Positions 8,993 through 32,717 of a stretch of 32,717 nucleotides of DNA are shown piece after piece. The position numbers and the translations under genes were made by a program. A model generated the notes under the pieces. That model ran no database searches. It was not told the origin of the DNA and worked only from the letters and a program-made list of their open reading frames with translations. The stretch comes from Candidatus Poseidoniaceae archaeon (GTDB taxonomy: Archaea > Thermoplasmatota > Poseidoniia > Poseidoniales > Poseidoniaceae), in the NCBI GenBank assembly GCA_030741455.1, contig JASLVI010000002.1, forward strand, positions 1-32,717, written 5' to 3'. Position 1 is the stretch's first letter; each line of letters begins with the position of its first letter.

Positions 8993-9032
8993 CCATCGCA
9001 TTGTTGAAGGGCTGGAAACCATTCCAACCATC

Positions 9033-10379: not shown

Positions 10380-10387
10380 GCGATTCG

Positions 10388-11980
10388 ATGAAGAACCTTA
10401 TCGGCTCTGGTGAGAATATGGCAAGCCCACATGGTGACCCAATCACTGAACTTCGGTCACGACGTGAGCGTGCCCGATTCGGAGGTGGGCGCAAAGCGCT
10501 GGAAGCCATTCGCGCTACTGGCCGTGGAACTGCGAGGGACCGAATCGACCTTCTCCTCGATCCTGACTCCTTCGTCGAAGTTGACACCTTCGTAACCCAT
10601 CGAACCAAAGATCACAACATGTTCCTGCATCAAACGCTCGGCGATGGTGTCGTCACAGGACATGGTACAATCGATGGTCGACGAGTATACTGTTTTGCAC
10701 AAGATTTCAGCGTCCATGGAGGTTCGATGGGCGAAATGCATGCAAAGAAGATTGCCAAACTCGTAGAAATGGCTGAGCGTTCGAAAACACCCCTAGTCTG
10801 CGTCTGGGATGGTGGAGGCCAACGTGCCCACGATGGAATCGATGCACTGGCTGGAACGGGTGAATTGCTCGATCGTTTGGTCCAATGCAGTGGGCGTGTT
10901 CCTGTCATCAGTCTCGTCTTAGGCCCAGTTGTTGGCGTGTCTGCATTGGCAGCGAGTCTATCCGATTTTACAATTTTAGGCGAAGAACATGGCCAACTGT
11001 TCCTATCATCGCCTTTGGAAACACCTGAAGTTCAAGCTGGAGAAGTGGATGCTGCAGGACTTGGTGGTGCAAATCTCCATGCATCCCGTTCAGGAATTGC
11101 TTGCTTGGTTGCCGATGATGAAGATGATGCGTTCTTCCTTGTCCAAGAAATCCTTTCCTACCTTCCAGATCACAACGATGCTGAACCACCTTATGTTGCA
11201 ACAGAAGATCCAATCAATCGTATGAACGATGAATTGGAATCGCTTGTTCCCGACAATCCCAACCGCCCTTACAATATGGTGAGTGTTGTCGAAGAGGTTG
11301 TTGACGATGGTGAATTCCTCGAACTTTTCCCAAACTACGCAGAGAACATCATCATTGGTTTCGCTCGGCTTGATGGTCGAAGCATTGGCGTGGTTGGTAA
11401 TCAACCAAATGTACTCGCAGGATGCTTGGACATCGACGCATCCATCAAAGCAGCACGATTCATCCGACTTTGCGACGCCTTCAACATCCCTCTCGTCACC
11501 TTTGAAGATGTACCTGGATTCTTACCTGGTGTCGTTCAAGAATGGGGAGGAATTATTCGGCACGGTGCTAAATTGCTGTTCGCGTACGCTGAGGCGACGG
11601 TGCCGAAATTAACGCTCGTCACTCGAAAGGCTTACGGTGGCGCCTATCTTGCCATGTCATGCAAACACTTGCAGAGCGATTACAACGTTGCATGGCCTAC
11701 CGCTGAACTTGCCGTTATGGGAGCAGAAGGTGCGGTTAACATCATTCATCGACGAGAAATTAATGCTGTTGATGACGACAAAAAGGAAGAGGTTCGCCAA
11801 CAATTGGTCGCTGAATACAAGGCGAAATTTGGCGACCCGTACGTTGCAGCACGGAACGGTTGGCTTGACGATGTTATCGAACCGACTGAAAGCCGTCTAC
11901 GATTGTGCAGAGCCCTTGCAATCCTGCGATCAAAGCGTGAATGGAGCCCTCCGAAAAAGCACGGAAACATTCCACTATGA
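10388..11980 (+). CDS. Acyl-CoA carboxylase carboxyltransferase subunit (propionyl-CoA carboxylase beta / methylmalonyl-CoA decarboxylase alpha family).
   Basis: 530 aa with family-typical blocks: GTARDRIDLLLDPDSFVEVD, FAQDFSVHGGSMGE, GVVGNQP, ARFIRLCDAFNIPLVTFEDVPGFLPG and RKAYGGAYLAM. The track start at 10178 overlaps gatD in another frame, so I used ATG 10388, which follows the gatD stop by 8 nt. Confidence 0.88.
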   Translation: MKNLIGSGENMASPHGDPITELRSRRERARFGGGRKALEAIRATGRGTARDRIDLLLDPDSFVEVDTFVTHRTKDHNMFLHQTLGDGVVTGHGTIDGRRVYCFAQDFSVHGGSMGEMHAKKIAKLVEMAERSKTPLVCVWDGGGQRAHDGIDALAGTGELLDRLVQCSGRVPVISLVLGPVVGVSALAASLSDFTILGEEHGQLFLSSPLETPEVQAGEVDAAGLGGANLHASRSGIACLVADDEDDAFFLVQEILSYLPDHNDAEPPYVATEDPINRMNDELESLVPDNPNRPYNMVSVVEEVVDDGEFLELFPNYAENIIIGFARLDGRSIGVVGNQPNVLAGCLDIDASIKAARFIRLCDAFNIPLVTFEDVPGFLPGVVQEWGGIIRHGAKLLFAYAEATVPKLTLVTRKAYGGAYLAMSCKHLQSDYNVAWPTAELAVMGAEGAVNIIHRREINAVDDDKKEEVRQQLVAEYKAKFGDPYVAARNGWLDDVIEPTESRLRLCRALAILRSKREWSPPKKHGNIPL

Positions 11981-14650
11981 GTTGTTCATGTTCTCTACAC
12001 GGGCAAGTAATCCGCCACCAGATTGGGCCTGCTGAAGCGGTTCTCGCGGTGGTTTTCGGAATTGGAAGAGAAGCCATCCGACCATACCAAGCAATGGTAG
12101 AATGATGAGGGCTGCAACCATTGTACTTCCAGAACTTGATTCAGGATCATTGCCGACACTTGGCGTTGGTTGTTCATCTGGAACAAGATATTGTAGTCGA
12201 AGCGATACATCTGCAAACGAAGGATCGCGTGCGACGATGTCAATATTCAACGGCGCCCCTGCTTGCAATTCAACATCGAATCGTTCTTCGCAGGTTCCAT
12301 TGGAATCACAGGTGCGTTGTCCTACAACTTCAACGCCATCAAATCGAACAATGACATCCATGTCATCACCATCAGCATCACGCCATTCCCACTGGAGTAG
12401 AAGGAAGGAATCATCGCTTTGCTCAACCGATCCGTTTGAGAGCGTCGGTTTGTCGGGCGTGGGCTCAATGGTGATGTTCATTCGATTGGAAAATATCGTA
12501 TTACCATCGGTTACATTCAGCCACCACGCTTGATCAGCACCCCATTTATCGAGGAGTGCAGAAACGAGTAATTCCTGCCCTGAAAGTGCTAACATAACGT
12601 TTGATTCACCCACAGATTCCACAGACCATGTCAATGGATCGCCATCAACATCGGAGGCGAACTGGGATAGATCGATTAAGATGGTTTCTTCCTCATCCAT
12701 CGACAACGACCAAGCTGATTCATCGACAACGAACGCATCATCAACAGCTTCGATACGAAGTGGTACATCAGCCACCAGAGGTGGATTGAATCCATCCGAG
12801 ATCGTTAACTGAAGCACTTCAGCACCATTCGCATCTGGAAGAGGCGTGAATTGGATGAGAGGTAAATCAGTTGATACACTCCATGAGACCTTGTCACCGC
12901 TACCTTGTGACAAACCGTTAATCTGAACCATTAGAGGTTGTTGCTCAGGATCGAAGAAATAATTTTCATAATTCAAGAAGAGACTTTCTCCATCTTCAGT
13001 AAGGGTTTGTTGATCGATGGTAGAAATCCGAAGAATTTGGTCATTTACAGGAACAACGCGCCCATCAAGTGTCACATTCGTTTGGTCGAGGATATCTCCT
13101 GTTGCTTCTAGATCAAGTTCGATGCGTGTCGTCCCCTCCCATTCTTCATCGACTGAGTGATACAACGTAACTGACGAAGCATCGGGACTGATCACGACAA
13201 GGAAATGTGATTCATTGTCGAGGACGGTCGCATTGAGAATACGAATGGGCTGGCCATCGGGGTCTGTAGCAATATCTGATGCATACAACACCATCGAATC
13301 ACGTTGAGGGACAATGAATTCGGGAAGAGGTTCTGCAAGTTCAATCGGATCGTTGGTTCGGATGAAATCAAAGCTCGCAAAACCTGTTCCGCCTTCTACT
13401 GATACGACCAGCCGAAGTTCGTGTGGACCGGGTGCAATTCCTTGCATTGGGATTGTACACGAGACATTCTCTTGAACGATGGTCGCCTGATATGTAGTCA
13501 TATTGTTCAAGAGACAATGCGCTTCAATCGTCCACATCGAAGGTAGATCAGCATAAACGTCTCCATTTCGCATCGACCATAATGCTTCGAACTCTGCATC
13601 ATCTTGCGGCCCAAACACCGTACCATTGAGACTTGTAACGTTCGTGATTCGAATCAATTTCGCATCATCGAGCAACTCGTCGACATAGCCGTTTGAATCC
13701 GAGGAAGAATGCAAGTTATTCTCTCGATTGAATGCTTCTCTAAATTTGGAATGATCGCCACGTAATGTGACATCGAGATACGGGAGAATATGCTCCATTG
13801 CATGATCAATTTGTTCTTCTTGTGTTAACGAAGCGTCCCCATCATTAAAATCCTCAATAAACGATGATGTGTCTTGATATTGGTAATGATTTGCACCGAG
13901 TGAATGTAGAATTTGCCAAGCAAGACCGTCCACATTTTCCAAAACAGGAATCACGTTTTCTGTGGCAGGGGCGATTTCATCCGCACTTCCTGTGATATAG
14001 AGAGCCACATTTGGAACGGCACCACTGATGATAAGCGGATCTTGAACTTCATCGACTTGCATCGCCAATCCTACCAAGGCACGAGGTGGTTGAATCGATT
14101 CGTTATCTACGAAGTTCTCCCAGTTGATGTAAACGTTTGAAGCCCATGTTGCACCATAACCATGACCGATAAGCCCCCAATGGTTTTCATCGACCGCACC
14201 ATACATGCCTAAGACAACTTCATGGGTTTTGTTCGCTTCATGCATCCAGTCCCGAACATCGAGGATTGATTCAATGAGGCTTTGAAAATTTGGCGTGTTA
14301 TCCGTGGTTAATTCCGAATGGATGTAGACCATGGTGCCACGTTGAGCGATACGCGTTGAGATAAGCATGTAGTTGTCTGGCGATTCGTTCTCATCGATGA
14401 GAAGGAGAACCCATGGAAACGGCCCATTTCCAGCAACTTCTTGCTCTTCACCGCTGCTGAGTGCAGGATACACCAAACGGTGATCAGGCCCGAATGCACC
14501 TGAATCTGCATCAAAATCAACGAAGCCTACTGGGAAATTTTCACCATTGTGTGTTGGTTGGAAATGTTGATCCTCTTCTGGTACAGCCAACGTTGTTGAA
14601 AGAGTTGAAAGAAACAACAAACAAACGAGAACACATGCTCGCTGGCTCAT
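11975..14650 (-). CDS. Anchored surface protein: signal peptide, alpha/beta-hydrolase-like domain with a Gly at the nucleophile position, cadherin-like repeats and a C-terminal TM anchor.
   Basis: Signal MSQRACVLVCLLFLSTLSTTLAVPEE. Nucleophile elbow reads LIGHGYGA. Repeats carry DPDGQPI, DVDGDPLTW and VNDQ/VDDA motifs. C-terminal anchor MVAALIILPLLGMVGWLLFQFRKPPRE. ATG 14650 is preferred over 14674 because a CTCAAAT box sits 29 nt upstream of 14650. Confidence 0.85.
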   Translation of the reverse strand: MSQRACVLVCLLFLSTLSTTLAVPEEDQHFQPTHNGENFPVGFVDFDADSGAFGPDHRLVYPALSSGEEQEVAGNGPFPWVLLLIDENESPDNYMLISTRIAQRGTMVYIHSELTTDNTPNFQSLIESILDVRDWMHEANKTHEVVLGMYGAVDENHWGLIGHGYGATWASNVYINWENFVDNESIQPPRALVGLAMQVDEVQDPLIISGAVPNVALYITGSADEIAPATENVIPVLENVDGLAWQILHSLGANHYQYQDTSSFIEDFNDGDASLTQEEQIDHAMEHILPYLDVTLRGDHSKFREAFNRENNLHSSSDSNGYVDELLDDAKLIRITNVTSLNGTVFGPQDDAEFEALWSMRNGDVYADLPSMWTIEAHCLLNNMTTYQATIVQENVSCTIPMQGIAPGPHELRLVVSVEGGTGFASFDFIRTNDPIELAEPLPEFIVPQRDSMVLYASDIATDPDGQPIRILNATVLDNESHFLVVISPDASSVTLYHSVDEEWEGTTRIELDLEATGDILDQTNVTLDGRVVPVNDQILRISTIDQQTLTEDGESLFLNYENYFFDPEQQPLMVQINGLSQGSGDKVSWSVSTDLPLIQFTPLPDANGAEVLQLTISDGFNPPLVADVPLRIEAVDDAFVVDESAWSLSMDEEETILIDLSQFASDVDGDPLTWSVESVGESNVMLALSGQELLVSALLDKWGADQAWWLNVTDGNTIFSNRMNITIEPTPDKPTLSNGSVEQSDDSFLLLQWEWRDADGDDMDVIVRFDGVEVVGQRTCDSNGTCEERFDVELQAGAPLNIDIVARDPSFADVSLRLQYLVPDEQPTPSVGNDPESSSGSTMVAALIILPLLGMVGWLLFQFRKPPREPLQQAQSGGGLLARVENMNNS

Positions 14651-14672
14651 ATACACCTGTTCATGTCTGAAC

Positions 14673-14679
14673 ATTTGAG
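14673..14679 (-). promoter_or_regulatory. Candidate TATA-like box CTCAAAT for the 891-aa surface-protein gene.
   Basis: 29 nt upstream of ATG 14650 on the minus strand. It matches the recurring motif and spacing seen elsewhere in the window. Confidence 0.4.
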
Positions 14680-14696: not shown

Positions 14697-15683
14697 TCAA
14701 TTTTCGTTCAATTTATGCTCATAAAGCGCCATCCATGTCATCAATTCCTCAAGCAATGGAAGATGTTCACCCAACGAAGGCGTCCACAAACAACGCCATG
14801 ATTCAAGGTGTTGTGCAGCCAACATCCATCGGCCATCGATTTGATGATTCTTGATTGATAGACGCTCGAAACGCTGCTCTAACGTCCCATCCATTTCAGT
14901 GTATGTCGGATGAAGCAAAAACTTCGATTGTGGAATTTCTTCGAGTGTGCCTTCAGTATCGATGACAACATCAAATTCCGTATCTATTCGATGTTTGAAG
15001 TTGGCAAGTGTTGCCGGCAATTGCCTTCTTCCACCGAGGGAGGTAACACGGCCGCCCGCCTTTATCCAGGCTGAAGCAATCGAACGCGCAGCACCGCCTC
15101 CTCCATGAATACCAAGAATTGCTTCTTGACCAACATCAATTCCGAAATGATGGGCGACATGAACAACACCAAAACCATCTGTTGTGGCACAATACCATCC
15201 TTGGTCAGAGTAACGAAGTGTGTTTACTGACAGAATGTCCAACGATTCATCAATCTGCGTAAACACCATACTCTGAAGTTGGTGTTTCAAAGGCATGGTC
15301 AAATTCAACCACACTTCTTTGTCGGAAGTACGTGTCGGCAACTGCGAAATCCTGACGCTCCTCAATGGAGGTTGAAGAATGGGTGTCAATGAGGGATTAG
15401 AATCCATTTGGACAATCTCTGAACCCAGTGCATACAAATTCGGTTGAAATGATTTCAACCGTTGCTTTGCAGGTTGCCATGCAGGTTGATGAAGGTCATG
15501 TTCAATGTATGCCCAACCCAGTAACTCATCGATATGCGTCGTATCGATAATCGAGACTGAGGGATGACTCGGCGTTGAGAGAACACCCTTTGCTACGAGA
15601 TCGGACAAAACCAGATTGAACAAGATTGGTGAAAGAGAATGGTCGATAGGAGAACCGCCAACAGCGTATCTCAAATCGTCCAT
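14697..15683 (-). CDS. aroE: Shikimate dehydrogenase-like protein with a roughly 55-aa insertion in the N-terminal substrate domain.
   Basis: AroE motifs occur in order: GSPIDHSLSPILFN, NLTMPLK, SVNT...TTDGFG and the NAD(P) loop GIHGGGGAARS. At 328 aa it is longer than the usual ~270 aa. Confidence 0.7.
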   Translation of the reverse strand: MDDLRYAVGGSPIDHSLSPILFNLVLSDLVAKGVLSTPSHPSVSIIDTTHIDELLGWAYIEHDLHQPAWQPAKQRLKSFQPNLYALGSEIVQMDSNPSLTPILQPPLRSVRISQLPTRTSDKEVWLNLTMPLKHQLQSMVFTQIDESLDILSVNTLRYSDQGWYCATTDGFGVVHVAHHFGIDVGQEAILGIHGGGGAARSIASAWIKAGGRVTSLGGRRQLPATLANFKHRIDTEFDVVIDTEGTLEEIPQSKFLLHPTYTEMDGTLEQRFERLSIKNHQIDGRWMLAAQHLESWRCLWTPSLGEHLPLLEELMTWMALYEHKLNEN

Positions 15684-16108: not shown

Positions 16109-16360
16109 ATGATACCAGTCGACCCTGGAACAGCAACGACAATACGTGCTATTGACGAAGGCTCGGAAGAATTGTTTGGTGGCTTTTGGCCATTTATCCG
16201 TAGAACATTGATGCTTTTCCTACCGCTTTGGGTATGGCTTCTTTTGTGGGCTGCAGGCTTACCGAATATTATCTCAGCATTATTTTCAGGACTCTCTCTG
16301 TCTCTCGTTGTTGCGATAGAACAGTACAAACTTCGTCAGATTGCCAGAAAAGACAATTAA
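16109..16360 (+). CDS. Small integral membrane protein (83 aa, 2 TM helices).
   Basis: Begins at an ATG 9 nt after the previous stop. TM-like segments are TLMLFLPLWVWLLLWAAGL and IISALFSGLSLSLVVAI. It is in the same orientation as the rest of the operon. Confidence 0.55.
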   Translation: MIPVDPGTATTIRAIDEGSEELFGGFWPFIRRTLMLFLPLWVWLLLWAAGLPNIISALFSGLSLSLVVAIEQYKLRQIARKDN

Positions 16361-16382
16361 TGACGGCCTACTATCCTTAGGC

Positions 16383-16991
16383 ATGACCTTATTTGAGATG
16401 TTGACGGAATTTGTCGGAATCGAAGCTCCTTCCTTAATGGAAATCATATTCGTGAGTTGTGCAGTACTTGGCGGAATACTATTTTTCATCATGATGCTCC
16501 TCATGATGGTAGGTGATGTTCTTGGAGGAGTTACTGACGCAATCGGTTTGGATATCGATGCTGGTGGTGGAGCATTTGAGATTTTGAGTGTTCAGGGCCT
16601 TTCCGTTGCAGTCATGATGTTTGGCTTGACTGGAATGTTTGGCCTTTCAGCAACGGGAAATGATGTCGTCGCTGTTCTTGCAGGTGGAATAGGCGCAGCA
16701 GCCGGCATGTATGGCATGGGGAAAATGATGTATGGAATCAATCAACTCCAAGCAGATGGTACAATCAACTACAACGATGCAATCGGCCAACGCGGCCAAG
16801 TCTATTCTCGCATCAAGCCAAACGAAACTGGTGAGATTCAAGTCCCTGTGGACGGTACACTCAAGACATTGTTGGCCAGAGCGCAAGACAAGTCGATATT
16901 GATCCCATCTGGAGAATTTATCAGAGTGGTCGATATCATCGGATCGACAATGATTGTCGCCCCACTTGAAGACGGTTCTTCTGAAGAGTGA
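16383..16991 (+). CDS. NfeD-like membrane protein (N-terminal TM helices plus a C-terminal OB-fold domain).
   Basis: A multi-TM N-terminus is followed by GQRGQVYSRIKPNETGEIQVPVDGTLKTLLARAQDKSILIPSGEFIRVVDIIGSTMIVAPLE, which is typical of the NfeD C-terminal beta-barrel. It sits immediately upstream of a flotillin gene, the classic NfeD-SPFH pairing. A TTG at 16341 is an alternative start. Confidence 0.75.
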   Translation: MTLFEMLTEFVGIEAPSLMEIIFVSCAVLGGILFFIMMLLMMVGDVLGGVTDAIGLDIDAGGGAFEILSVQGLSVAVMMFGLTGMFGLSATGNDVVAVLAGGIGAAAGMYGMGKMMYGINQLQADGTINYNDAIGQRGQVYSRIKPNETGEIQVPVDGTLKTLLARAQDKSILIPSGEFIRVVDIIGSTMIVAPLEDGSSEE

Positions 16992-21624: not shown

Positions 21625-21698
21625 TGGGTCCGGAGGGAATTGAACCCTCGATCTTCGCCTTGTAAGGGCGACGTCATAAACCCCTAGACCACAGACCC
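21625..21698 (-). tRNA. tRNA-Val (anticodon TAC), no intron, CCA not encoded.
   Basis: The reverse complement folds as acceptor GGGTCTG/CGGACCC, D arm GTCT-AGGGGTTTA-TGAC, anticodon arm TCGCC-CTTACAA-GGCGA, variable loop AGATC, T arm GAGGG-TTCAATT-CCCTC and discriminator A. 74 nt. Confidence 0.92.
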
Positions 21699-24870: not shown

Positions 24871-25404
24871 TCAAACAACCTTGTTGAATTCAAGGTCTTG
24901 GTATGCCTTGATGACAGATCCATCACCAGGTCCTGGCTGGTAGGTGATTCGGATGGTAGCATCCGTCAACGCCTGACCGTCAGGAGCGTGGGTTCGTACG
25001 AAGATTTGGTCACCGATTCCGAAGGTAGATTCCTTGAATGAACCTTCATTTTCGACCTTGTCAACGAATGATACGAACGCATCACTGTTTGATGGGTTAA
25101 ATCCATACACATTGCTCGTGTTTGAGAGCAATGTGGCATACGAAGTTCGAACACCATCTGTGTTGGTATAGAGAACCGTTACAGTAACGGCTGCAGTAGC
25201 CAACTCAGCTTCTGTTTGATCAACTGTGATTTGCCAGTATCCATCTACTGTACCAAGTTCCTTGTTCTCGATGTCAAAGGTGACTCGAGGAACACCCAAC
25301 TTGCCTGTCTCTGCGAGGGAAGAAGCCCAAACATAGATCACACCAGAGAGGACGACAGTGATTGCAACCATGAGGATGGTCGCAATAACTGGGCTGACTG
25401 CCAT
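24871..25404 (-). other. Archaeal type IV pilin-like module (class III signal peptide / Pilin_N, formerly DUF1628-type), 177 aa, in frame with the giant ORF; possibly a separate gene.
   Basis: Internal ATG at 25404, then AVSPVIATILMVAITVVLSGVIYVWASSL. This is the hallmark hydrophobic N-terminus of archaeal pilin-like proteins. A ~150-aa beta-rich domain follows, carrying AFVSFVD...FGIGDQIFV, which is typical of that family. Confidence 0.75.
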
Positions 25405-28400
25405 TTCATCTTCGACGATGCGTCGTGTTTCTTCTTCTTGCTCCTCTTCTTCACGGCGGCTTGACATTGCAAGAGCTGTGACGAAGAAGCCAGCGAGGGC
25501 TACTACAACGAGGCTTGGTGCGAACGATGGAACAGATCCAATACCGCCACCGAGTTGAACAACGGATGGGAGTTTGTCTCCGCTGCTGAGGAAGTCCTCA
25601 GCTGGCTTGTTCACGTGGTTACAGGTTGTTGGAACTCCAGCGTCACTGTCGATTGCGGAAGCATCCGAGAACATGACGTTGTTACACCAGTCGCTGTCTT
25701 GGAGCAATGGTCGACGAGTCGATTCAGTAACTCCATCGTCACCGTATGCACCAGGCTTGGACCATTGTTCACCGGTCATGCCGCCACCGTAGTTAACGTG
25801 GGCCCATGGTCCGTTGACTTGGTCATCCATCTGGAAGCGCTGTGCAGGAGCCTTTGCCATGTCACACTCTTCGTCCAAACATGTCAGAACGTCCATCTCA
25901 ACCCAAATGTATGGTGTGGATGTTCCGTCATCGACGATGTAGACGTACTCTTCGAAGGTCGATGTAGTACCCCACTCAGGTGGTGTGACATACATGACGT
26001 TCTCAGATTCACCATGTCCACCACTGGTGTGGAAGGTGATTGCAAGCATGTGATCGTAGGTGTATGGTCCTTGATCGCCACCAGCACCGACTACAACTTC
26101 AACAGGCACGTAGGTACCGGTTAGAACATCGGTAATGCCTTGGAAGTCGAATCCAACGACATCATCGAAGTAGTAGTCAGCAACGAGTTCACGTACGTTC
26201 TCGACTCGGACACCGATTTCTTGGGTTGCAACACCTTGCTGGTAGTTTGCAATTGCCATAACCGATGGGTCGTAGTTTGGTACGTAACTTGGTGCAGTAG
26301 CGGTGTCCTTGAGGACAAGACGGATCTGACAGAAGTCAGAGCCACTTGGTCCGATTTGGTGGATACCGTTGTCGTTCAAGTAGTCGATTTCCCAAGCGTT
26401 TGCTGTGGTTGTTGCATCAGGAACAAGTGTGAAGACGAGGTTGTCTCCAACAATCTCAGTGCTGAAGTAGTTCTCGTACGTACATTGGTCTGTTGATTCA
26501 ACGGTCCATGTCAAGTCAGCAGCGTTGTGGTCAACGTCGTACTTGACAGCAGACAAATCGTAGGTCAGGTTGTTCGCATTGGTGTCATCTTCCATGAGGC
26601 TGATGGACCATGGGGCAACTGGAGTAGATCCATTTGCTGCGGTAACAACTGCTCCTGTTGTAACATCCCAATCGAGGACAACTGGTGCATCGTTCACAGG
26701 GCTGACTGAGAAGTCAACTGTGAATGCGTCTGCATCTTGGTTCTCTGCACCATCATCACTGAGGGTGAGCGTAACCGTACAGGTTCCACCGAGTTCGTTA
26801 GCAGTGTTCTCGACGATGGTCAACTCATTGTTGGTGACCGATACACCGAATGCAACACATTCTGTTGGAACGGATGCATCCCATGTGTAGACCTGTCGAA
26901 GAGGGCTCTGCTCGTTGTCCATGTCACGGATGTACGACTTGCTCGCGTTCGAGATGTCACCAAGGAACTTGGAGACACTGCCGAATCCTTCAGGAACGAT
27001 GTTCGTGTAAGATCCGTCGTCAACGAAGACTGGCATACAGTCTGGACGCTCTGTGTTACAGATGACCGGCTTGTCGTTGATGTTGTTGACCGTCAAGGTC
27101 ATGTTCTTGGTATCGGTCAAGCCGTGGCTGTCCGTAACAATGAACTCAAACTCAACTGTTCCGAATTGGTCATCGAGAGGCGTGATCGTCACTGTGTGAC
27201 CATTCTTGTCCCAGTCGACCAAAACGTTGCTATGAGCAACGGTTGTTCCTTCAGTGACAGTCCATGTGAGAGTTGCCTCATCGTCTTGGACGTCATCAGC
27301 GAGGTTGGTCAAGGAGATGGTGTATGCACCACTGTCCTCATCAACAGATTCGTCAGCAAGAGCAGCCTGGATTTCAGGACATGCTCGCTTGATGTCAACG
27401 GTGAGCTCTTGGTTGGTTGCCATCGAAACAGCGTCAACAGTTGCCCAGTCGTAAACACAATCGGCCTTTGTCTTGATCATTACATCGTAGTCCTTTGCAG
27501 GTCCTGCGGTGGTCGTACCCTTGTAGGTTCGGTAAACCAAGACTTCATCGCTGATGCTTCCAGTTTCAAGATCGTCGTGAGTTGTCTCAATGGAGATGTA
27601 CTCACTGAGTGTCTGAACACCTGTGGAAACAGTCTGTGTTGGGTGAACGGTTTGGATGTTCGCTGAACCGTCTTGGACGACAGCGACGATGTTCACTGCA
27701 TCAGGTGTTCCACCAATTCGGCTGAATGGGATTGCGATTTCGAAGAAACCAGCGGTTGTTGTTCCCAAATCAGCGTCAACAGCATCTGTGGACAAGGAGC
27801 TTGCACCCCAGCCAAGGAATCCATTGGAGTAGAGGTCCATGTTGGAATCACTTGTAGCCCAGAAGAGATAGTCTGCTTGTACTGGTAGTGTGTGAGCACC
27901 ATTGAGGTTGTAACCTGTGTTGGAGCCACCAGCAACGACATCGAGATAGATCAAGAGGTCGTTGTTGGTAAGGTCTTCACCAGTCATACCGATGTAGAGT
28001 GCATCACCTTCACTGTATGTGACGTAGAAGTCGTTGGTTCCGTCACCGGAGACCATACCAGGCATAGCATCGTCAGATGGGTTCAATGGAGTACCACCAA
28101 TCCAATCCGAGTCATCACCGTCAACAGCCATGATATCAGGCTGGAAGGATGGTGATACGTATGCAGCACGGGTTCCGTCTGTGGAGACCAATGTCATACC
28201 AACAGCGGATGCAGCACCACTGAGGTGGGTTGCATCGAGACTGAAGAGGTTCGCTTCATCGATGGTTGCAGATGAGACAATGCTGATCTTCTGACTGTCG
28301 AGCGTGTTACCAATGCTGGTAACGTAGGCGTTCGAGCCAGCGTTGATTTGCGTTGTCGAAGCAGACCAGGTCAAGTTCTCGACCGATCCAACCGACTCGA

Positions 28401-31400
28401 CAGCGTGGATAGCTGTTGTCGCTGTTGAGGTACCGCCGTCCCATCGGAACTCAGTGTTCTCAGCGTAGACACCAACGTCACCTGCGGCATCGAGTGGGTA
28501 AATCCACGAGTAGTCACCATCGACCATGTAGAGGCCAGTACCTGTGCTTCCTCCATCAACAGATGCACCAATTGCGGTGACTGTTGCGTCGTCAGCGTAA
28601 ACACCAGCGGTGGATCCTGCGATGTCTGCGTCACCATGCATAGTGAGTGTTGCAGACTCGATGGAGACACCGTAAGCATATCCACCTACAGAGGTTCCGT
28701 CAAGTTCGATATCGTCACCCGAGTTGAGTGATGCAATACCGATACTCGATGCGACGTTGGTTCCAACGAAGGTTGAATCAACATCGGAAACATCACAGCC
28801 ATCAGTGATCATTGCATTGTCACCGATGGTTACTGTGTTGTCCTTACTCTGGATGGTAACCTTGTCACAGTCGTTGAAGTCAAATCCAACGGCGTTTGGT
28901 GCGGTACGTCCAGCACTGATTCCGATGGTGTTGTTCTCAACAACTGGTCCTGAGTATCCGCCAGCGGAAGTTCCGTAGTAAACTGCGATGTTTGCACCAC
29001 CGTCGCCCCAGGTGTCAGTAACCTTGAGAGTGTACTGACCCGCTGTGCTGTAGGATACTAGACGTGCGTATACGCTGTTCGAATTGAACGAACCAGCAGC
29101 CCAGTTGTCCTTTGTTCCGTCAGGCTTGGTAATTTCAAGACCGATTTCTCCGCCCCAGCTGTCCGATTCAAGATCGACGTAGGCTGTAACACCTGATGGG
29201 ATGGTGAAGGTACATGTGCTCTGCGTACGGTAAGCGTTGGATGCAATGGTACACAACGAGGTTGTTGGTGCAGGTGGGCTAGTAGCATCTTCCATGAAGA
29301 TACCGCCGTCAGCGTCCAACAATGTGTTGTTTGAGATTGTACCGTATCCAGCATCGGTTTCGATACCAGCTTCTCCAGCCTCTCCAGTTCCAATGATTTC
29401 ATTGTTATCGATGGTGTAGTCGAGGATTCCGTACATCTGGATCGCAGTTTGCGGTCCGTTGAAGTAGTTGTCAGTAACGCTGATTCGCTTGTTGTTTCCA
29501 CTGAATGCGGAGAATCCTTCTTCAGCAGATGTACTGTTAAACCAGTTTCCTGTAACAACCAAATCGTCGGTGTAAGAGTTTCCATAAACCCAAACGTCAG
29601 CAATCTCTCCACCATCGTTGAATTCGTTTCCTTCAATGGTGAGGTTGTCAGCTCCAAACTCGTTTGCATTGTGCGTGTACGAGTATGGGCTTCTTTGCGT
29701 CATAATTCCTGCACCACAATCGTTGAAGGTACTGTCCTTGATGTAGGATCCATCGGTACCAGTCATTTGAACACAGACGTCTGTAGATTGGATAGCGTTG
29801 TTCAATGGAGTGTATCCCTTGAAGTGCGTAACCGTAACGTTGTCCATGTACAAGAACTCTGATCGGTGATCGTAGTTATTCCATGTTGATTTGTAGGCCA
29901 TACCACTAGTAATGGATGCAACAGGATTCAAGGTTGTATCCTTGATCGAGATGTCCATTGCTTGGTAGATGTAACCCAATTCAAGACCGGTTTGTTGGCC
30001 AGTATCTGGGTTTGTCGCAACACCGAATACTTCAGAATCGTGCAAGTACAATTCAGGAGCGTTTGATCCTCCTTGTGCGTACCAACGCTGTGTGTCAGTG
30101 AAGAGATATGCTCCAGTAATAAGAACCAATGTGTTGTTCCAGTTGTGCTCATCATTGTCATCAAAGTACATGAAAGGAACGTCCATCATGATGGTCTTTC
30201 CAGACATATCCTCTGGTGTAGCAGCATAGTAACCGTATTCCTTAACGGTACCACCGTTACCATCAGCTAGGTTACGGTTGCCACCAGTGCTGAGGTAACT
30301 CGCACAGTTGGAAACCGTCTCGTATGAGGCACTGTTGAAACTGTAACAGACACGAGCATTGATTCGATCGGTGAGGGAAATGCTTCCACTGTTACCACTC
30401 GCATCATTCAATGAGAGGGATTGGAATGCATATCGGAAGTCACCCTTGGTCGAGGTGTAATCAATCATTGCAACTGTTACAGCTTCGTATCCGTTGAGAT
30501 CATCGCTGTTTGCTCCAGTTGAATCAACACGGACTGTACGGAACAAGATACCATCGGCATCACCGTTAGAGTCGGTTGTACCGGTTCCAGTAATCTTCTT
30601 GTCAGCGTTCATGAGAACGACGTTCGTATCCTGAACTGCGTTCGTGTCAGCCTGGACATTGATGGTTAGTTCGCGCATGCGTTCAAATCCACCAGTTCCT
30701 GTTACAGCAACCTTGTTGGTATCGATTGTTCCTTCGATAAAGTCAACTTCACTCGTTCCAGTGATCTTGACATCGCTCAGTGTATTGGCAAAGGTTGAAT
30801 CACTCACGGTGATGTCTCCTGAACCAGCGGTTTCGATACCAATGTTGTTACCTGAAACGGTCACACTACTGAAAGAAACATCCTTGTTGGTTTGCGAACC
30901 ATACTGATACGCAGCACCAGCACTGTTGGTGATTGTACCGGAGAGGTCGCCTCCAAAGTCCTTGACGTAGTAGATACCAGCGTTGTTTTGACCATCAAAG
31001 TCGATGTTGGTCATGTCCATTTGTCCTGAACCAGAACTGGAGACAAGCATACCGTAGTCACCGCCATCGACATCAATGTCGTTCATTGCTGCAGCGGTTG
31101 CTCCGACAACTTCGATTCCTTGATCGTTTGGTGATGTGATATCGATTCCGTCAAAGTTTCCAGAAGCGAAGTTACCACCGATTGCGATACCGGTATCTGC
31201 ACCAGTGATGGCACCGTTCTCGAAGGAAGCGGTACCACTGTCACGAGCGTAGTCACCGAGTGCACTTGGGTCGTTACCAGCACGGGCAACGAAGTCCAAG
31301 CGATCTTGATAGTTGTCAGCACGGTTGTGCAGAACGTCAACGTACATGGTTACCGCAGAAATCGAAGAATCAGAGATATCGACGATTGGGAAGGACATTC

Positions 31401-32717
31401 GAGCGCCTTCGCCTGGGTTCATGTAGTAACTGTAAGCGTAATCCAAACAGATGTTGTAGTAACCGCCGTATCCGTTGTAGCCTTCAGGTGGCTTGTAGAC
31501 ACCCTGTCCACCGTGATAGGAGTTGTAGTAGTAACCCCAGTAGTGGTATGGGTAGGATCCATAGGATGGGCTGGTGTCAGAGTCAATCTCACTCCAGCGG
31601 AATCCGAATTCATCAGGGTAGTAGTAGTAACCTGGGTAGGAGACGTACTGTGTTGGACCTTGAGGCCAATAGCGCCACATGTAGTACATGTATCCATCAA
31701 AGGATCCTGTGTATCCAGGACCATACGAATAACCGTAGTAGTTGCAGTGCCATGAAGCAACACCACCTTCACCACCAGCGTAGGTAGCAGCTCCGTTTCC
31801 GGACTTCGGATCGTCTGCTGCGTATGGGTAGTAACCCAACTTGTCTGGGGTAGTGATGTTCTCAGAGACTTCTCCAGAACCATCATCGTAGGTGACCTCG
31901 ATGTTCCATCGGTCGGTGAGCATGTAGTACTTGCTCGACGCGTAGTTGTAGGTAGGGTGAGCGTTACCTCCACCGTAGATGGAGTTCGCACCAACTTGCA
32001 AGTAGTCACCGGATCCGAGGAACGCAGTGAGATCGATTGCATAGGTGTGCCATCCAGTCGACTGTCCCGAGAGGGATGTCGAACGGTAGATGGTTGGTAG
32101 GCTCATTCCACCATAGACATCGACACCCACGGTGTTATCCGTCGATGTAAATCCGTCAATTTGTGGAGCACCGTTGTAGGATTGAATACCAACAGCAGCG
32201 TTCGAAACAGCAACGTTGCTGACCGACGCGCTTGATTGTTCAAGCCAAAGTGCAGTACCTGTGTTTCCGACGTTGATGATGCTCGAAGAGTCGATGTCAG
32301 CGGAGCCGCCATCGATCTTGACAGTTGCCATCTCATCCGAGGACGCAGAGGACCCGTAGACGGTTCCTGAGTTCTTCATGACGAGTGTAGCACCGTCGCC
32401 GACGTAGAGCGCAGCACCAGTTGTAGCGTCTTGAGCGACGTCACGAACGATACCGCCATCGATTTCGAGTGTTCCATCTTGGATGTCAATATGGAGCGGG
32501 TATGTCGAGGATACAGCCTGGAGAGAACCAGTTGCAACGCTTGACGTACCGACGAGCAACTTACCACCGTTGGACAATGTCAAAACAGGTGTGCTTGTTG
32601 CAGTCGACTTGACCTTCAATACAGCACCCATGAGCTTGATGACACAACCGTTGAGGTTGAGATCTTCAGTCAACGTCATTGGTGTTCCATCGAATTCGTA
32701 AATGGTGTGTCCTGATG
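24871..32717 (-). CDS. Giant beta-helix/cadherin-like surface adhesin, 5'-partial (more than 2614 aa), fused in frame to a C-terminal archaeal type IV pilin-like module.
   Basis: The 2602-aa ORF stays open upstream of its first ATG (32679) to the window edge; the in-frame codons read SGHTIYEFDGTP. Parallel beta-helix-type repeats (G/S/T/N/D-rich strands such as IDGGSADIDSSSIINVGNTG) span about aa 1-1500. A P-domain/PPC-like jelly roll (WGGEIGLEITKPDG...LKVTDTWGDGG) lies at about 28972-29259. A CBM9/DOMON-like domain (DGDDSDWIGG...LYIGMTG...LLIYLDV) lies at about 27664-28134. Cadherin-like repeats with NNINDKPV and VSPVNDAPV lie at about 26290-27357. The TM anchor is at 25465-25524. Confidence 0.9.
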   Translation of the reverse strand, partial: SGHTIYEFDGTPMTLTEDLNLNGCVIKLMGAVLKVKSTATSTPVLTLSNGGKLLVGTSSVATGSLQAVSSTYPLHIDIQDGTLEIDGGIVRDVAQDATTGAALYVGDGATLVMKNSGTVYGSSASSDEMATVKIDGGSADIDSSSIINVGNTGTALWLEQSSASVSNVAVSNAAVGIQSYNGAPQIDGFTSTDNTVGVDVYGGMSLPTIYRSTSLSGQSTGWHTYAIDLTAFLGSGDYLQVGANSIYGGGNAHPTYNYASSKYYMLTDRWNIEVTYDDGSGEVSENITTPDKLGYYPYAADDPKSGNGAATYAGGEGGVASWHCNYYGYSYGPGYTGSFDGYMYYMWRYWPQGPTQYVSYPGYYYYPDEFGFRWSEIDSDTSPSYGSYPYHYWGYYYNSYHGGQGVYKPPEGYNGYGGYYNICLDYAYSYYMNPGEGARMSFPIVDISDSSISAVTMYVDVLHNRADNYQDRLDFVARAGNDPSALGDYARDSGTASFENGAITGADTGIAIGGNFASGNFDGIDITSPNDQGIEVVGATAAAMNDIDVDGGDYGMLVSSSGSGQMDMTNIDFDGQNNAGIYYVKDFGGDLSGTITNSAGAAYQYGSQTNKDVSFSSVTVSGNNIGIETAGSGDITVSDSTFANTLSDVKITGTSEVDFIEGTIDTNKVAVTGTGGFERMRELTINVQADTNAVQDTNVVLMNADKKITGTGTTDSNGDADGILFRTVRVDSTGANSDDLNGYEAVTVAMIDYTSTKGDFRYAFQSLSLNDASGNSGSISLTDRINARVCYSFNSASYETVSNCASYLSTGGNRNLADGNGGTVKEYGYYAATPEDMSGKTIMMDVPFMYFDDNDEHNWNNTLVLITGAYLFTDTQRWYAQGGSNAPELYLHDSEVFGVATNPDTGQQTGLELGYIYQAMDISIKDTTLNPVASITSGMAYKSTWNNYDHRSEFLYMDNVTVTHFKGYTPLNNAIQSTDVCVQMTGTDGSYIKDSTFNDCGAGIMTQRSPYSYTHNANEFGADNLTIEGNEFNDGGEIADVWVYGNSYTDDLVVTGNWFNSTSAEEGFSAFSGNNKRISVTDNYFNGPQTAIQMYGILDYTIDNNEIIGTGEAGEAGIETDAGYGTISNNTLLDADGGIFMEDATSPPAPTTSLCTIASNAYRTQSTCTFTIPSGVTAYVDLESDSWGGEIGLEITKPDGTKDNWAAGSFNSNSVYARLVSYSTAGQYTLKVTDTWGDGGANIAVYYGTSAGGYSGPVVENNTIGISAGRTAPNAVGFDFNDCDKVTIQSKDNTVTIGDNAMITDGCDVSDVDSTFVGTNVASSIGIASLNSGDDIELDGTSVGGYAYGVSIESATLTMHGDADIAGSTAGVYADDATVTAIGASVDGGSTGTGLYMVDGDYSWIYPLDAAGDVGVYAENTEFRWDGGTSTATTAIHAVESVGSVENLTWSASTTQINAGSNAYVTSIGNTLDSQKISIVSSATIDEANLFSLDATHLSGAASAVGMTLVSTDGTRAAYVSPSFQPDIMAVDGDDSDWIGGTPLNPSDDAMPGMVSGDGTNDFYVTYSEGDALYIGMTGEDLTNNDLLIYLDVVAGGSNTGYNLNGAHTLPVQADYLFWATSDSNMDLYSNGFLGWGASSLSTDAVDADLGTTTAGFFEIAIPFSRIGGTPDAVNIVAVVQDGSANIQTVHPTQTVSTGVQTLSEYISIETTHDDLETGSISDEVLVYRTYKGTTTAGPAKDYDVMIKTKADCVYDWATVDAVSMATNQELTVDIKRACPEIQAALADESVDEDSGAYTISLTNLADDVQDDEATLTWTVTEGTTVAHSNVLVDWDKNGHTVTITPLDDQFGTVEFEFIVTDSHGLTDTKNMTLTVNNINDKPVICNTERPDCMPVFVDDGSYTNIVPEGFGSVSKFLGDISNASKSYIRDMDNEQSPLRQVYTWDASVPTECVAFGVSVTNNELTIVENTANELGGTCTVTLTLSDDGAENQDADAFTVDFSVSPVNDAPVVLDWDVTTGAVVTAANGSTPVAPWSISLMEDDTNANNLTYDLSAVKYDVDHNAADLTWTVESTDQCTYENYFSTEIVGDNLVFTLVPDATTTANAWEIDYLNDNGIHQIGPSGSDFCQIRLVLKDTATAPSYVPNYDPSVMAIANYQQGVATQEIGVRVENVRELVADYYFDDVVGFDFQGITDVLTGTYVPVEVVVGAGGDQGPYTYDHMLAITFHTSGGHGESENVMYVTPPEWGTTSTFEEYVYIVDDGTSTPYIWVEMDVLTCLDEECDMAKAPAQRFQMDDQVNGPWAHVNYGGGMTGEQWSKPGAYGDDGVTESTRRPLLQDSDWCNNVMFSDASAIDSDAGVPTTCNHVNKPAEDFLSSGDKLPSVVQLGGGIGSVPSFAPSLVVVALAGFFVTALAMSSRREEEEQEEETRRIVEDEMAVSPVIATILMVAITVVLSGVIYVWASSLAETGKLGVPRVTFDIENKELGTVDGYWQITVDQTEAELATAAVTVTVLYTNTDGVRTSYATLLSNTSNVYGFNPSNSDAFVSFVDKVENEGSFKESTFGIGDQIFVRTHAPDGQALTDATIRITYQPGPGDGSVIKAYQDLEFNKVV
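31405..31836 (-). repeat. Tyr/Gly/Pro/Trp-rich low-complexity insert (about 144 aa, about 25% Tyr) within the adhesin beta-helix region.
   Basis: Translation reads GYYPYAADD...NYYGYSYGPGYTGSFDGYMYYMWRYWPQGPTQYVSYPGYYYYPDEF...SYGSYPYHYWGYYYNSYHGGQGVYKPPEGYNGYGGYYNICLDYAYSYYM. On the plus strand the DNA shows repeated gtagtagtaacc strings. Confidence 0.8.

What the first reader, a model, noticed from the sequence alone, without database searches (positions are those of the whole stretch)
24871..25524. A complete archaeal pilin-like module is fused in frame behind the membrane anchor of a >2600-aa adhesin
The adhesin ends the way archaeal anchored surface proteins normally do. It has a TM helix (FAPSLVVVALAGFFVTALAM) followed by a short charged tail (SSRREEEEQEEETRRIVEDE). 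Instead of a stop, the frame continues directly with M-AVSPVIATILMVAITVVLSGVIYVWASSL plus a ~150-aa beta domain. That sequence is a full-length archaeal type IV pilin-like protein with the class III signal-peptide core. Such proteins are, as far as I know, standalone 150-200-aa genes with leaders of a few to about a dozen residues. I see three possible readings. (1) It is a genuine polyprotein: a prepilin peptidase (PibD/FlaK/EppA-type) would cut at the cytoplasmic face near A|VSPV. That would release a pilin and leave the adhesin anchored by TM1, effectively a leader of more than 2400 aa. (2) It was two adjacent genes whose separating stop was lost. The codon just before the internal ATG is GAA (plus-strand ttc at 25405-25407), one substitution away from TAA. 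(3) The pilin-like product is made by internal initiation at ATG 25404. Any of these couples a giant adhesin physically or transcriptionally to a pilus-type subunit, and I cannot map that arrangement to a described system.
Basis: partly seen in the sequence, partly recalled or inferred. Interest (0 to 1): 0.8.

Follow-up and report, generated by a model that had tools for sequence, protein, structure and literature searches.

The report
Pilin module ending giant archaeal adhesin
A roughly 4,500-residue surface protein of the abundant ocean archaea Poseidoniaceae (Marine Group II) ends, in every genome examined, with a membrane helix, a short cytoplasmic linker and then a complete type IV pilin with its cleavage-site motif still present, an arrangement I could not find described and that may tie a giant adhesin to the cell's pilus machinery.

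Summary
On the minus strand, one ORF (24871..32717, open at the window edge) encodes ectodomain, VPSFAPS, TM1, a charged linker, then AVSPVIATILMVAITVVLSGVIYVWASSLA plus a beta-sandwich. The last 177 aa score above threshold for Pfam Pilin_N and TIGR02537.

It is neither an assembly error nor a lost stop. All 81 fetched loci, the best of at least 536 hits among species-representative genomes (nearly all labelled Poseidoniales or Poseidoniaceae), keep the same single frame. Full-length orthologs are 3,639-5,559 aa with N-terminal Sec-type signals. Met 25404 is not conserved. The pilin helix is invariant in protein while synonymous sites are scrambled. Positions -1 (A/G) and -3 to -5 (acidic) match the leaders of standalone Poseidoniaceae pilins that carry almost the same helix.

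The same cassette also ends unrelated large proteins in other Thermoplasmatota. Poseidoniaceae additionally have a paralog in which both helices are absent.

Best reading: a conserved C-terminal cassette with prepilin topology, probably cut at A|V by the prepilin peptidase. Cleavage is inferred, not shown (about 50%). The main rival is an uncleaved two-helix anchor with a FlaF-like domain. I rate it a new variant of a known kind; I found no description in the literature searched.

The parts
25534..32717 (-). Extracellular body of the giant surface protein. Only the C-terminal ~2,390 aa lie in the window; the ORF is open at the window edge and about 1,930 N-terminal aa are missing.
   Evidence: There is no stop upstream of 32679. 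The ORF aligns at 54% identity to residues 1938-4593 of P0122 (4,595 aa) and at 89% to residues 1029-3639 of P0121. It hits Big_9 and Cadherin_5 (the latter just below its cutoff). Full-length orthologs start with Sec-type signal peptides.
25513..25533 (-). Conserved VPSFAPS motif immediately outside TM1. General form [PS][SG]F[ALV]P[SG].
   Evidence: The motif is conserved in the Poseidoniaceae family and in the unrelated cassette-bearing proteins. It looks like a sorting signal, but no curated C-terminal sorting-signal model matches at threshold.
25465..25524 (-). TM1 (FAPSLVVVALAGFFVTALAM), a stop-transfer helix running from outside to inside.
   Evidence: Kyte-Doolittle peak of 2.2. AlphaFold2 predicts a helix at residues 27-57 of the 242-aa model. 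Its sequence is only moderately conserved.
25399..25464 (-). Cytoplasmic linker SSRREEEEQEEETRRIVEDEMA: a basic cluster (SRR), an acidic run, then the leader-like [ED]D[DE]-x-A.
   Evidence: The linker has 4 K/R and 10 D/E. Across 82 sequences, -1 is Ala in all 82, -3 to -5 are acidic in nearly all, and -2 varies. This matches the leader consensus of 100 N-terminal pilins with the same helix.
25396..25401 (-). Predicted prepilin-peptidase (class III signal peptidase) site, Ala|Val.
   Evidence: This is the same A|VS site that FlaFind predicts for Haloferax volcanii PilA1-6 (DAVS/RAVS; PMC4371748). Cleavage here is inferred, not shown.
25312..25398 (-). Pilin hydrophobic H-domain (TM2), VSPVIATILMVAITVVLSGVIYVWASSLA, running from inside to outside.
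   Evidence: It forms the core of the Pilin_N and TIGR02537 hits. The amino acids are essentially invariant in 82 sequences, yet there are 2-6 codons per site and only 54% pairwise identity at third codon positions.
24874..25311 (-). Extracellular beta-sandwich domain of the pilin-like module (146 aa).
   Evidence: AlphaFold2 gives pLDDT of about 90 over the strands. The best Foldseek matches are FlaF 4p94, H. salinarum archaellin 9eq7 and Iho670 5kyh, at E about 1e-3 and TM 0.36-0.50, which is marginal. It is homologous (31% identity, E=3e-16) to the same domain in paralogs that lack both helices.
24871..24873 (-). Stop codon (TGA) of the whole ORF.

Best explanation
This is the conserved C-terminal cassette of one very large (about 4,500 aa) Sec-exported surface protein of Poseidoniaceae (Marine Group IIa).

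Proposed topology:
- The N-terminal signal peptide sends the huge ectodomain out of the cell.
- TM1, preceded by the VPSFAPS motif, stops transfer.
- About 22 charged residues stay in the cytoplasm.
- The pilin H-domain then re-inserts from inside to outside, which places the beta-sandwich outside, next to the base of the ectodomain.

That is exactly the topology of a prepilin, with everything upstream acting as a giant 'leader'.

I propose that the cell's class III signal (prepilin) peptidase cuts at EDEMA|VSPV on the cytoplasmic face. This would leave the adhesin anchored by TM1, and next to it, in 1:1 amounts, a mature pilin-like subunit. Its H-domain is nearly identical to that of the standalone Poseidoniaceae pilins. 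The subunit could therefore be handled by the same type IV filament machinery, and so couple the giant adhesin to a pilus-type structure.

Shown here: the fusion is real, conserved and under strong selection; the cleavage-site features are retained; standalone pilins with a matching helix exist in the same family.

Inferred: the topology, the cleavage, the co-assembly, and any physical link between the two products.
For: The fusion is real:
- A 100%-identical independent contig exists (P0001).
- All 81 fetched loci are single-frame, most with the ORF open to the 10-kb flank limit. These are the best 80 of at least 536 hits among species-representative genomes, plus one syntenic locus.
- Complete proteins of 3,639-5,559 aa carry the module at their very end and Sec-type signals at the N-terminus.

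The module is a pilin:
- It scores above cutoff for Pilin_N and TIGR02537.
- Its family profile hits solved archaeal pilins.
- The predicted fold is a helix plus beta-sandwich, with best matches to archaellins and FlaF.

Selection on the helix:
- The H-domain is invariant in protein while third codon positions are only 54% identical.
- The flanking domains diverge to about 45% identity.

The cleavage site is retained:
- Position -1 is A in 82 of 82 sequences, and A or G in all 28 internal cassettes from several families. Positions -3 to -5 are acidic.
- The same pattern, [RK][NED][ED]x-A|VSPV, is seen in 100 pilins that carry this helix at the N-terminus behind 7-37-aa leaders.
- Some of those pilins are annotated as Ca. 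Poseidoniaceae type IV pilin or lie on Poseidoniaceae contigs.
- H. volcanii PilA pilins use the same A|VS site, and their conserved H-domain is required for pilus assembly (PMC4371748).

The cassette is modular. Unrelated ectodomains in other Thermoplasmatota end with PSFAPS, TM, a basic linker and [DE][AG]|VSPVIAIILMVAITIVL. In these the -2 residue is charged, as the canonical rule requires.

The machinery exists. All MGIIa carry archaellum operons plus extra flaI, flaJ and tadC genes (PMC6461757; PMC6864105; PMC6336850).
Against: - Cleavage is untested.
- Position -2 is uncharged here (M), and is M, A, T, L, G or V in most Poseidoniaceae orthologs. A charged -2 is reported to be critical for archaeal prepilin peptidases (PMC4371748).
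- No prepilin peptidase, ATPase or platform gene lies in the window or beside the gene. I did not verify a peptidase gene in these genomes myself.
- Poseidoniaceae paralogs lack both helices and keep the beta-sandwich covalently continuous with the membrane-proximal domain. The sandwich can therefore function without being a separate pilin.
- The best structural match includes FlaF, which from my own knowledge is a pilin-like protein thought to stay uncleaved in the membrane. The fold matches are marginal (E about 1e-3; TM 0.36-0.50 for the 177-aa model, 0.24-0.50 overall).
- The invariance of positions -1 to +8 and +11 to +19 in the 81 loci is partly forced by the peptide patterns used to find them. 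The phmmer-derived alignments show the same invariance, however.
Confidence: 0.5

Rival explanations
1. Uncleaved two-helix hairpin anchor. TM1 and the pilin-derived helix stay joined and anchor the adhesin. The beta-sandwich acts as a fixed membrane-proximal domain, as in FlaF/ArlF-type proteins. The invariant helix would then be kept for contacts inside the membrane, for example with the archaellum or pilus platform, or for regulation of the kind seen with H. volcanii PilA H-domains.
For: - Paralogs without the hairpin keep the sandwich fused to the same membrane-proximal domain.
- The FlaF soluble domain is the top Foldseek match.
- Position -2 is uncharged in this gene, against the FlaFind rule.
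- No peptidase or pilus genes lie nearby.
- In H. volcanii, membrane-resident pilins contribute to adhesion, and the conserved H-domain is functionally critical (PMC4371748).
Against: - A plain anchor does not explain why -1 is restricted to A or G, or why -3 to -5 match the leaders of standalone pilins across several independent protein families.
- It does not explain why the full VSPV start of the mature pilin is invariant.
- It does not explain why a flexible 10-25-aa cytoplasmic linker is always kept.
- TM1 evolves like an ordinary anchor, whereas the second helix does not.
Confidence: 0.35
2. Internal translation or transcription start. The pilin-like protein is also made on its own, from Met 25404 (or from a Met at -7 in other clades). 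The locus would then behave as two overlapping genes.
For: - A Met lies within 14 residues upstream of the site in 75 of the 86 sequences examined (82 fused, 4 standalone), mostly at -2 or -7.
- Gene callers often start fragments there (P0007, P0010, P0042).
- A DUF1628 gene had one of the strongest transcription start sites on MG-II contigs in a Red Sea metatranscriptome (PMC5069720). Which gene that was is unresolved.
Against: - The Met is not conserved. Eleven of the 86 sequences and the whole second family lack it, and close relatives of this very gene have T or V at -2.
- Positions -2 and -7 are generic hydrophobic positions.
- GAG codons, which would give SD-like GGAG, are rarer in the linker (0.24) than in the rest of the gene (0.38).
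- A 2-aa leader (MA) is, from my own knowledge, shorter than archaeal prepilin peptidases are reported to accept.
- I saw no AT-rich TATA-like box upstream in the sequence (by eye).
Confidence: 0.07
3. Artefact or recent accident: a mis-assembly, or two adjacent genes that lost the stop between them in this genome only.
For: Only this: the codon before the ATG is GAA, one substitution from TAA.
Against: - The same single frame is present in 81 of 81 loci from different species and assemblies.
- It is also present in an identical independent contig and in complete 3.6-5.6-kaa proteins.
- Selection on the junction residues is strong.
Confidence: 0.01

Closest known systems
Haloferax volcanii adhesion pilins PilA1-6 (Pilin_N/DUF1628 family; PibD substrates)
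   Same: Same Pfam family. Same predicted processing site (D/R-A|V-S-P-V-I). A near-identical H-domain is shared among paralogs, and that H-domain is needed for pilus assembly. The genes are not linked to the assembly genes (PMC4371748).
   Different: PilA proteins are small, with the signal at the extreme N-terminus behind a leader of about 10 aa. Here the signal follows about 4,370 residues and a transmembrane helix, and -2 is uncharged.
Modular type IV pilins and pilus-tip adhesins in bacteria (Streptococcus sanguinis PilB; PilY1 with minor pilins)
   Same: They join a large adhesive module to a pilin so that a filament machine can display it (PMC8179133 and PMC5979040, abstracts listed). 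This is the closest analogue for what the cassette may achieve.
   Different: In modular pilins the extra module is C-terminal to the pilin and stays covalently attached. PilY1 is a separate protein. Here the adhesin is N-terminal to the pilin, is separated from it by a membrane helix, and would be severed from it by cleavage.
FlaF/ArlF and FlaG/ArlG (archaellum stator proteins)
   Same: An N-terminal archaellin-like helix plus a beta-sandwich that sits at the cell envelope. The FlaF soluble domain is the top structural match.
   Different: They are small proteins encoded in the archaellum operon, and from my own knowledge they lack a processing site. The cassette keeps the site and lies among housekeeping genes. 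The structural match is marginal.
Sulfolobus bindosome sugar-binding proteins (non-pilin proteins with class III signal peptides)
   Same: A precedent for large functional surface proteins that use a prepilin-type signal and PibD (mentioned in PMC4371748).
   Different: The signal there is still N-terminal and is followed by the functional domain. Nothing lies upstream of it.
Archaeosortase/exosortase-type C-terminal sorting signals (PGF-CTERM and relatives)
   Same: TM1 has the three-part look of these signals: a short conserved motif (PSFAPS, or PGF in some variants), a helix, then a basic cluster.
   Different: It is not at the C-terminus. No curated model matches at threshold; the best was Heimdall-CTERM at 15.1 bits against a cutoff of 24, for one variant only.

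Membership tests
Archaeal type IV pilin-like proteins (Pilin_N / class III signal peptide substrates) | Sequence match to the pilin N-terminal domain models | tested here: met
   PF07790 at 34.8 bits (cutoff 25.2) and TIGR02537 at 35.5 bits (cutoff 20). The family profile hits solved pilins 8fj5, 8gi2 and 9myg.
Archaeal type IV pilin-like proteins (Pilin_N / class III signal peptide substrates) | Small residue (G/A/S) at -1, directly before a hydrophobic stretch of about 20 residues or more | tested here: met
   Ala at -1 in 82 of 82 sequences. Kyte-Doolittle peak of 2.5 over the following helix.
Archaeal type IV pilin-like proteins (Pilin_N / class III signal peptide substrates) | Charged residue at -2 (FlaFind rule [KRDE][GA]) | tested here: not met
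   Position -2 is Met in the window and mostly M, A or T in its orthologs. It is met in the second cassette family (D/E). Among 100 N-terminal pilins with the same helix it also varies: E, K, Q, D, S, A, T, M.
Archaeal type IV pilin-like proteins (Pilin_N / class III signal peptide substrates) | Signal at the N-terminus of the precursor, behind a short leader | tested here: not met
   The site lies after residue 2,427 of the in-window ORF, which corresponds to about residue 4,400 of full-length orthologs. N-terminal pilins with the same helix have leaders of 7-37 aa.
Archaeal type IV pilin-like proteins (Pilin_N / class III signal peptide substrates) | Globular beta-rich domain after the helix | tested here: met
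   The AlphaFold2 model shows a helix plus an 8-strand sandwich (pLDDT 80). The best PDB matches are archaellins, FlaF and Iho670, at marginal scores.
Archaeal type IV pilin-like proteins (Pilin_N / class III signal peptide substrates) | Cleavage by PibD/FlaK/EppA-type peptidase and assembly by an ATPase and platform | not testable with these tools
   No such genes lie in the window or flanking the gene. Their presence in MGIIa rests on the literature on archaellum operons and extra flaI/flaJ/tadC genes.
FlaF/FlaG (ArlF/ArlG) membrane-anchored archaellin-like proteins | Encoded in the archaellum operon | tested here: not met
   The neighbours are a HAD hydrolase, CinA, the DNA polymerase small subunit, Pelota, FTHFS and flotillin, and this synteny is conserved.
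FlaF/FlaG (ArlF/ArlG) membrane-anchored archaellin-like proteins | Beta-sandwich fold similar to the FlaF soluble domain | tested here: inconclusive
   4p94 and 4zbh are top Foldseek hits, but at E about 1e-3 and TM 0.36-0.50. Generic Ig-like folds score nearly as well.
Archaeosortase-type C-terminal sorting signals (PGF-CTERM and similar), considered for TM1 | Match to a curated sorting-signal model, and location at the extreme C-terminus | tested here: not met
   No NCBIfam sorting-domain hit for the window's TM1. One distant variant gave sub-threshold hits only. The segment is followed by about 200 more residues.

The most novel reading that the evidence does not exclude
A true archaeal 'adhesin-pilin polyprotein'. 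The prepilin peptidase would cut an internal class III signal about 4,400 residues into a precursor, effectively the longest pilin leader known. A second cut at the conserved PSFAPS motif is possible. The released pilin, whose H-domain matches the cell's standalone pilins, would enter the same type IV filament or its platform. This would mount, or mechanically and regulatorily couple, a giant adhesin on a pilus-type machine in the most abundant planktonic archaea of the surface ocean. The cassette would be a portable 'plug' that other Thermoplasmatota reuse on unrelated surface proteins.
Probability: 0.35. Interest if true: 0.85.

Novelty: new variant of a known kind. Interest (0 to 1): 0.68.

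Why it matters
Marine Group II archaea are uncultured and are among the most abundant archaea in surface seawater. How they attach to particles and algae is an open question, and the current answers rest on the presence of archaellum and 'adhesion' genes. This cassette sits on what is probably their largest surface protein. It is present in at least 536 species-level genomes and is under very strong selection.

If it is processed as a prepilin, several things follow:
- The known substrate range of class III signal peptidases would extend to internal sites behind a membrane helix.
- It would give a concrete, testable physical link between a giant adhesin and type IV filament machinery.
- It would define a portable C-terminal module that can be searched for in other archaea.

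There is also a practical consequence. Gene callers and annotation pipelines routinely label fragments of this gene as small 'type IV pilin' or 'flagellin-like protein'. That inflates pilin counts in MGII metagenomes.

Tried and rejected
- Lost stop or assembly error: rejected by 81 of 81 single-frame loci and by full-length proteins.
- Conserved internal start: rejected as the general mechanism. The Met is not conserved, and SD-like codons are not enriched.
- TM1 as a known archaeosortase signal (VPXXXP-, PGF- or PEF-CTERM): the NCBIfam scan of six TM1 variants at E<=10 gave nothing at threshold.
- Pilus or peptidase genes near the gene: none in the window or in syntenic loci. The standalone pilins lie next to glycosyltransferases, not ATPases.
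- The second giant gene in the window (3..6539): checked for the same cassette. Its ~3,056-aa orthologs lack it.
- Literature: no paper in the searchable library combines Marine Group II with class III signal peptides. The archaeal T4P census of 2016 and a 2026 preprint on archaeal type IV filament (TFF) machineries do not mention a C-terminal pilin cassette. The first search was uninformative.
- The supplement of the Red Sea transcription-start-site study: could not be used to tell which DUF1628 gene carried the strong start site.
- Taxon names for several divergent carriers: could not be obtained.
Full report
**What is in the sequence**

The minus strand from 24871 to the window edge at 32717 is one open frame. 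There is no stop upstream of the first ATG at 32679, so the gene is cut by the window. Its C-terminal 242 residues read as follows:
- ...LPSVVQLGGGIGS
- VPSFAPS
- LVVVALAGFFVTALAM (TM1)
- SSRREEEEQEEETRRIVEDEM-A (linker)
- VSPVIATILMVAITVVLSGVIYVWASSLA (second helix)
- a 146-aa domain, then the stop

Hydropathy shows two clear membrane-helix peaks.

The last 177 aa score above the curated cutoffs of Pfam Pilin_N (34.8 vs 25.2 bits) and TIGR02537 (35.5 vs 20). A profile of the family finds solved archaeal pilins: 8fj5 at 6e-12, Natrinema PilA2 8gi2 and 9myg.

AlphaFold2 gives one long helix followed by an eight-strand sandwich (pLDDT 80). The best Foldseek matches are the FlaF soluble domain, Halobacterium and Methanocaldococcus archaellins and Iho670. 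Their scores are only marginal (E about 1e-3; TM 0.36-0.50 for the 177-aa model, 0.24-0.50 across both searches).

**It is not an accident of this assembly**

A 100%-identical 302-aa fragment exists on an independent contig (P0001). A scan of one genome per species found at least 536 genomes with a relative. Nearly all of the listed hits are labelled Poseidoniales, Poseidoniaceae or Poseidonia, and two are evident bin contaminants.

In all 80 best loci, plus one syntenic locus fetched separately, TM1, linker and pilin are in one frame. In most of them the frame stays open upstream to the 10-kb flank limit, which is more than 3,570 aa.

An exhaustive profile search returned complete proteins of 3,639, 4,372, 4,539, 4,572, 4,595, 4,640 and 5,559 aa. 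All carry the module at the extreme C-terminus, and most have typical Sec-type signal peptides at the N-terminus. The window's ORF aligns to residues 1938-4593 of the 4,595-aa ortholog. The real protein is therefore about 4,500 aa.

The gene neighbourhood is conserved and contains no pilus genes. It comprises a HAD hydrolase, CinA, the DNA polymerase II small subunit, Pelota, formate-tetrahydrofolate ligase, flotillin and NfeD. The 'lost stop' reading is refuted.

**The internal Met**

The residue before the invariant Ala is M in 33 of 82 sequences. Otherwise it is A (30), T (8), L, G, V or R. Close relatives of this very gene have T or V there.

A Met does occur at -2 or -7 in most Poseidoniaceae sequences. 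However, it is absent from 11 of the 86 sequences examined and from the whole second cassette family. Both positions are generic hydrophobic sites. GAG codons, which would create SD-like GGAG, are rarer in the linker than in the rest of the gene (0.24 vs 0.38). Internal initiation cannot be excluded as a side route, but it is not what the conservation is about.

**What is conserved, and what that implies**

Across 82 sequences, positions -1 to +29 are essentially invariant in protein. Each site nevertheless uses 2-6 different codons, and third positions are only 54% identical pairwise. The adjoining beta domain and ectodomain have diverged to 40-55% identity.

Part of this invariance is built into the locus scan, which used the peptides AVSPVIATI and VAITVVLSG. 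The phmmer-derived alignments show the same invariance, however.

TM1, by contrast, varies like an ordinary anchor. Just before the helix, -1 is always Ala and -3 to -5 are always acidic.

I compared this with 100 proteins that carry nearly the same helix at their N-terminus behind leaders of 7-37 aa, typically M-K-N-E-N-R-N-E-E-A|VSPVIATILMVAITVVLAGVLYVWA (a few of these are mis-called fragments of the fused gene):
- -1 is A (90), G (6) or S (4).
- -3 is E or D in 90.
- -2 is variable: E, K, Q, D, S, A, T, M.

Some of these short pilins are annotated 'type IV pilin [Candidatus Poseidoniaceae archaeon]'. Others sit on contigs whose neighbouring genes cluster at >=90% identity with Poseidoniaceae proteins.

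The same family of organisms therefore has ordinary small pilins and this giant protein, sharing one H-domain and one leader-end pattern. In Haloferax volcanii the six PilA pilins share an H-domain in the same way, use the same predicted A|VS site, and need that H-domain to build pili (PMC4371748).

**The cassette is portable**

Another group of large proteins (about 800-2,400 aa) is annotated from Thermoplasmatota. These share nothing with the window's protein except the last ~200 residues. Their ends read as follows:
- ...TPSFAPS
- a TM helix
- SRRKKKGRGKDDD-A|VSPVIAIILMVAITIVLAGVLWLWV..., or ...KKGYRRDRE-A|VSPV..., or ...KKDEDG|VSPV...

In these the linker is short and basic, and -2 is D or E, which is the canonical FlaFind pattern. 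Across all internal cassettes, -1 is only ever A or G. A restriction to exactly the residues a prepilin peptidase accepts is hard to explain for a mere anchor.

**A natural deletion experiment**

Poseidoniaceae also encode ~575-aa paralogs (for example P0150, and P0296 annotated Ca. Poseidoniaceae). In these, the membrane-proximal 'MDVLTC.DE.CDM' segment and the beta-sandwich (31% identity, E=3e-16) are directly continuous. Both helices are missing. A different C-terminal anchor (SGLPSIG-TM-RREQEE) takes over.

This supports the topology, with the sandwich outside next to the stalk base. It also shows that the sandwich can work without being a free pilin, which is the main argument for the rival hairpin-anchor model.

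**Mechanism proposed**

*Shown:*
- a conserved single ORF
- an intact Pilin_N module with leader-end features retained
- standalone pilins with a matching helix in the same family
- a modular cassette reused on unrelated proteins

*From the literature:* all MGIIa carry archaellum operons, plus extra flaI, flaJ and tadC genes (PMC6461757; PMC6864105; PMC6336850). This implies a class III signal peptidase, although I did not verify one myself.

*Inferred:*
- TM1 stops transfer and the linker stays cytoplasmic.
- The H-domain re-inserts as a prepilin does.
- The peptidase cuts at A|V.
- The result is a TM1-anchored adhesin plus an adjacent mature pilin-like subunit that the pilus or archaellum machinery can recognise.

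I put about 50% on cleavage, about 35% on an uncleaved hairpin with a FlaF-like or regulatory role, about 7% on internal initiation contributing, and about 1% on artefact.

**Comparison with what is known**

It is a member of the Pilin_N sequence family. It fails two defining features of class III signal-peptide substrates as currently described: N-terminal position, and (in this gene) a charged -2.

It works most like modular pilins or PilY1-minor-pilin complexes, but with inverted order and a membrane helix in between. It resembles FlaF in fold, at marginal scores. TM1 looks like a sorting signal but matches no curated model.

I found no description of such a cassette in the searchable literature. 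Public annotation only tags these proteins as 'archaellin/type IV pilin N-terminal domain-containing' or 'flagellin-like'.

**Verdict**

This is a real, strongly conserved and apparently undescribed variant of the archaeal prepilin theme, in an ecologically dominant uncultured lineage. The biochemistry is unproven.

Noticed in passing
window 3..6539 (-): A second giant surface-protein gene. It has an N-terminal signal peptide and runs off the left edge of the window. Orthologs are about 3,056 aa, 'DNRLRE domain-containing protein' (PF24517), in Poseidoniaceae. They end in an acidic/Pro-rich tail and have no pilin cassette. The ORF listing does not show it because it runs off the end.
   Followed up: yes
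window 11978..14674 (-): An 899-aa surface protein with Big_9/Cadherin_4 domains, an N-terminal signal and a plain single C-terminal TM anchor. This shows that the pilin cassette is not the general anchor for surface proteins in this genome.
   Followed up: partly
P0150, P0296, P0304, P0345 (Poseidoniaceae proteins; L087:1731-3458): The paralogs lacking both helices, and many thrombospondin-type-3-repeat proteins, share a C-terminal 'SGLPSIG - TM - RRE(Q)EE' ending. This may be a lineage-specific sorting signal.
   Followed up: no
L088:10001-10525, L089, L090, L082:8548-9054: Standalone Poseidoniaceae pilins (~170-185 aa, leader MKNENRNEEA|VSPV...) occupy a conserved locus beside glycosyltransferase genes and far from any ATPase or platform gene. 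This hints at glycosylated pilins encoded away from the assembly genes, as in Haloferax.
   Followed up: partly
window 8862..8989 (+) and 21625..21698 (-): Two tRNA genes. The first spans 128 nt, so it probably carries an intron. It overlaps the spurious 5' extension of the GatD ORF (8940..10379). The carboxyltransferase ORF (10178..11980) likewise has an over-long called start.
   Followed up: no
L022 and L056: Contigs carrying this MGII gene are deposited in MAGs labelled Salipiger bermudensis and Verrucomicrobiales bacterium. This is evident binning contamination.
   Followed up: no
literature: PMC5069720: A DUF1628 'archaellin' gene had the seventh-strongest transcription start site on MG-II contigs in a Red Sea metatranscriptome. 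Whether that gene is a standalone pilin or the end of the giant gene could not be resolved from the supplements held.
   Followed up: partly
window 7860..8765 (-), 14700..15683 (-), 16341..16988 (+): Three conserved-looking ORFs (302, 328 and 216 aa) with no Pfam hit at E<=1e-4. The 216-aa one is membrane-rich and sits just upstream of the flotillin gene; its syntenic counterpart in L001 has a weak NfeD hit.
   Followed up: no
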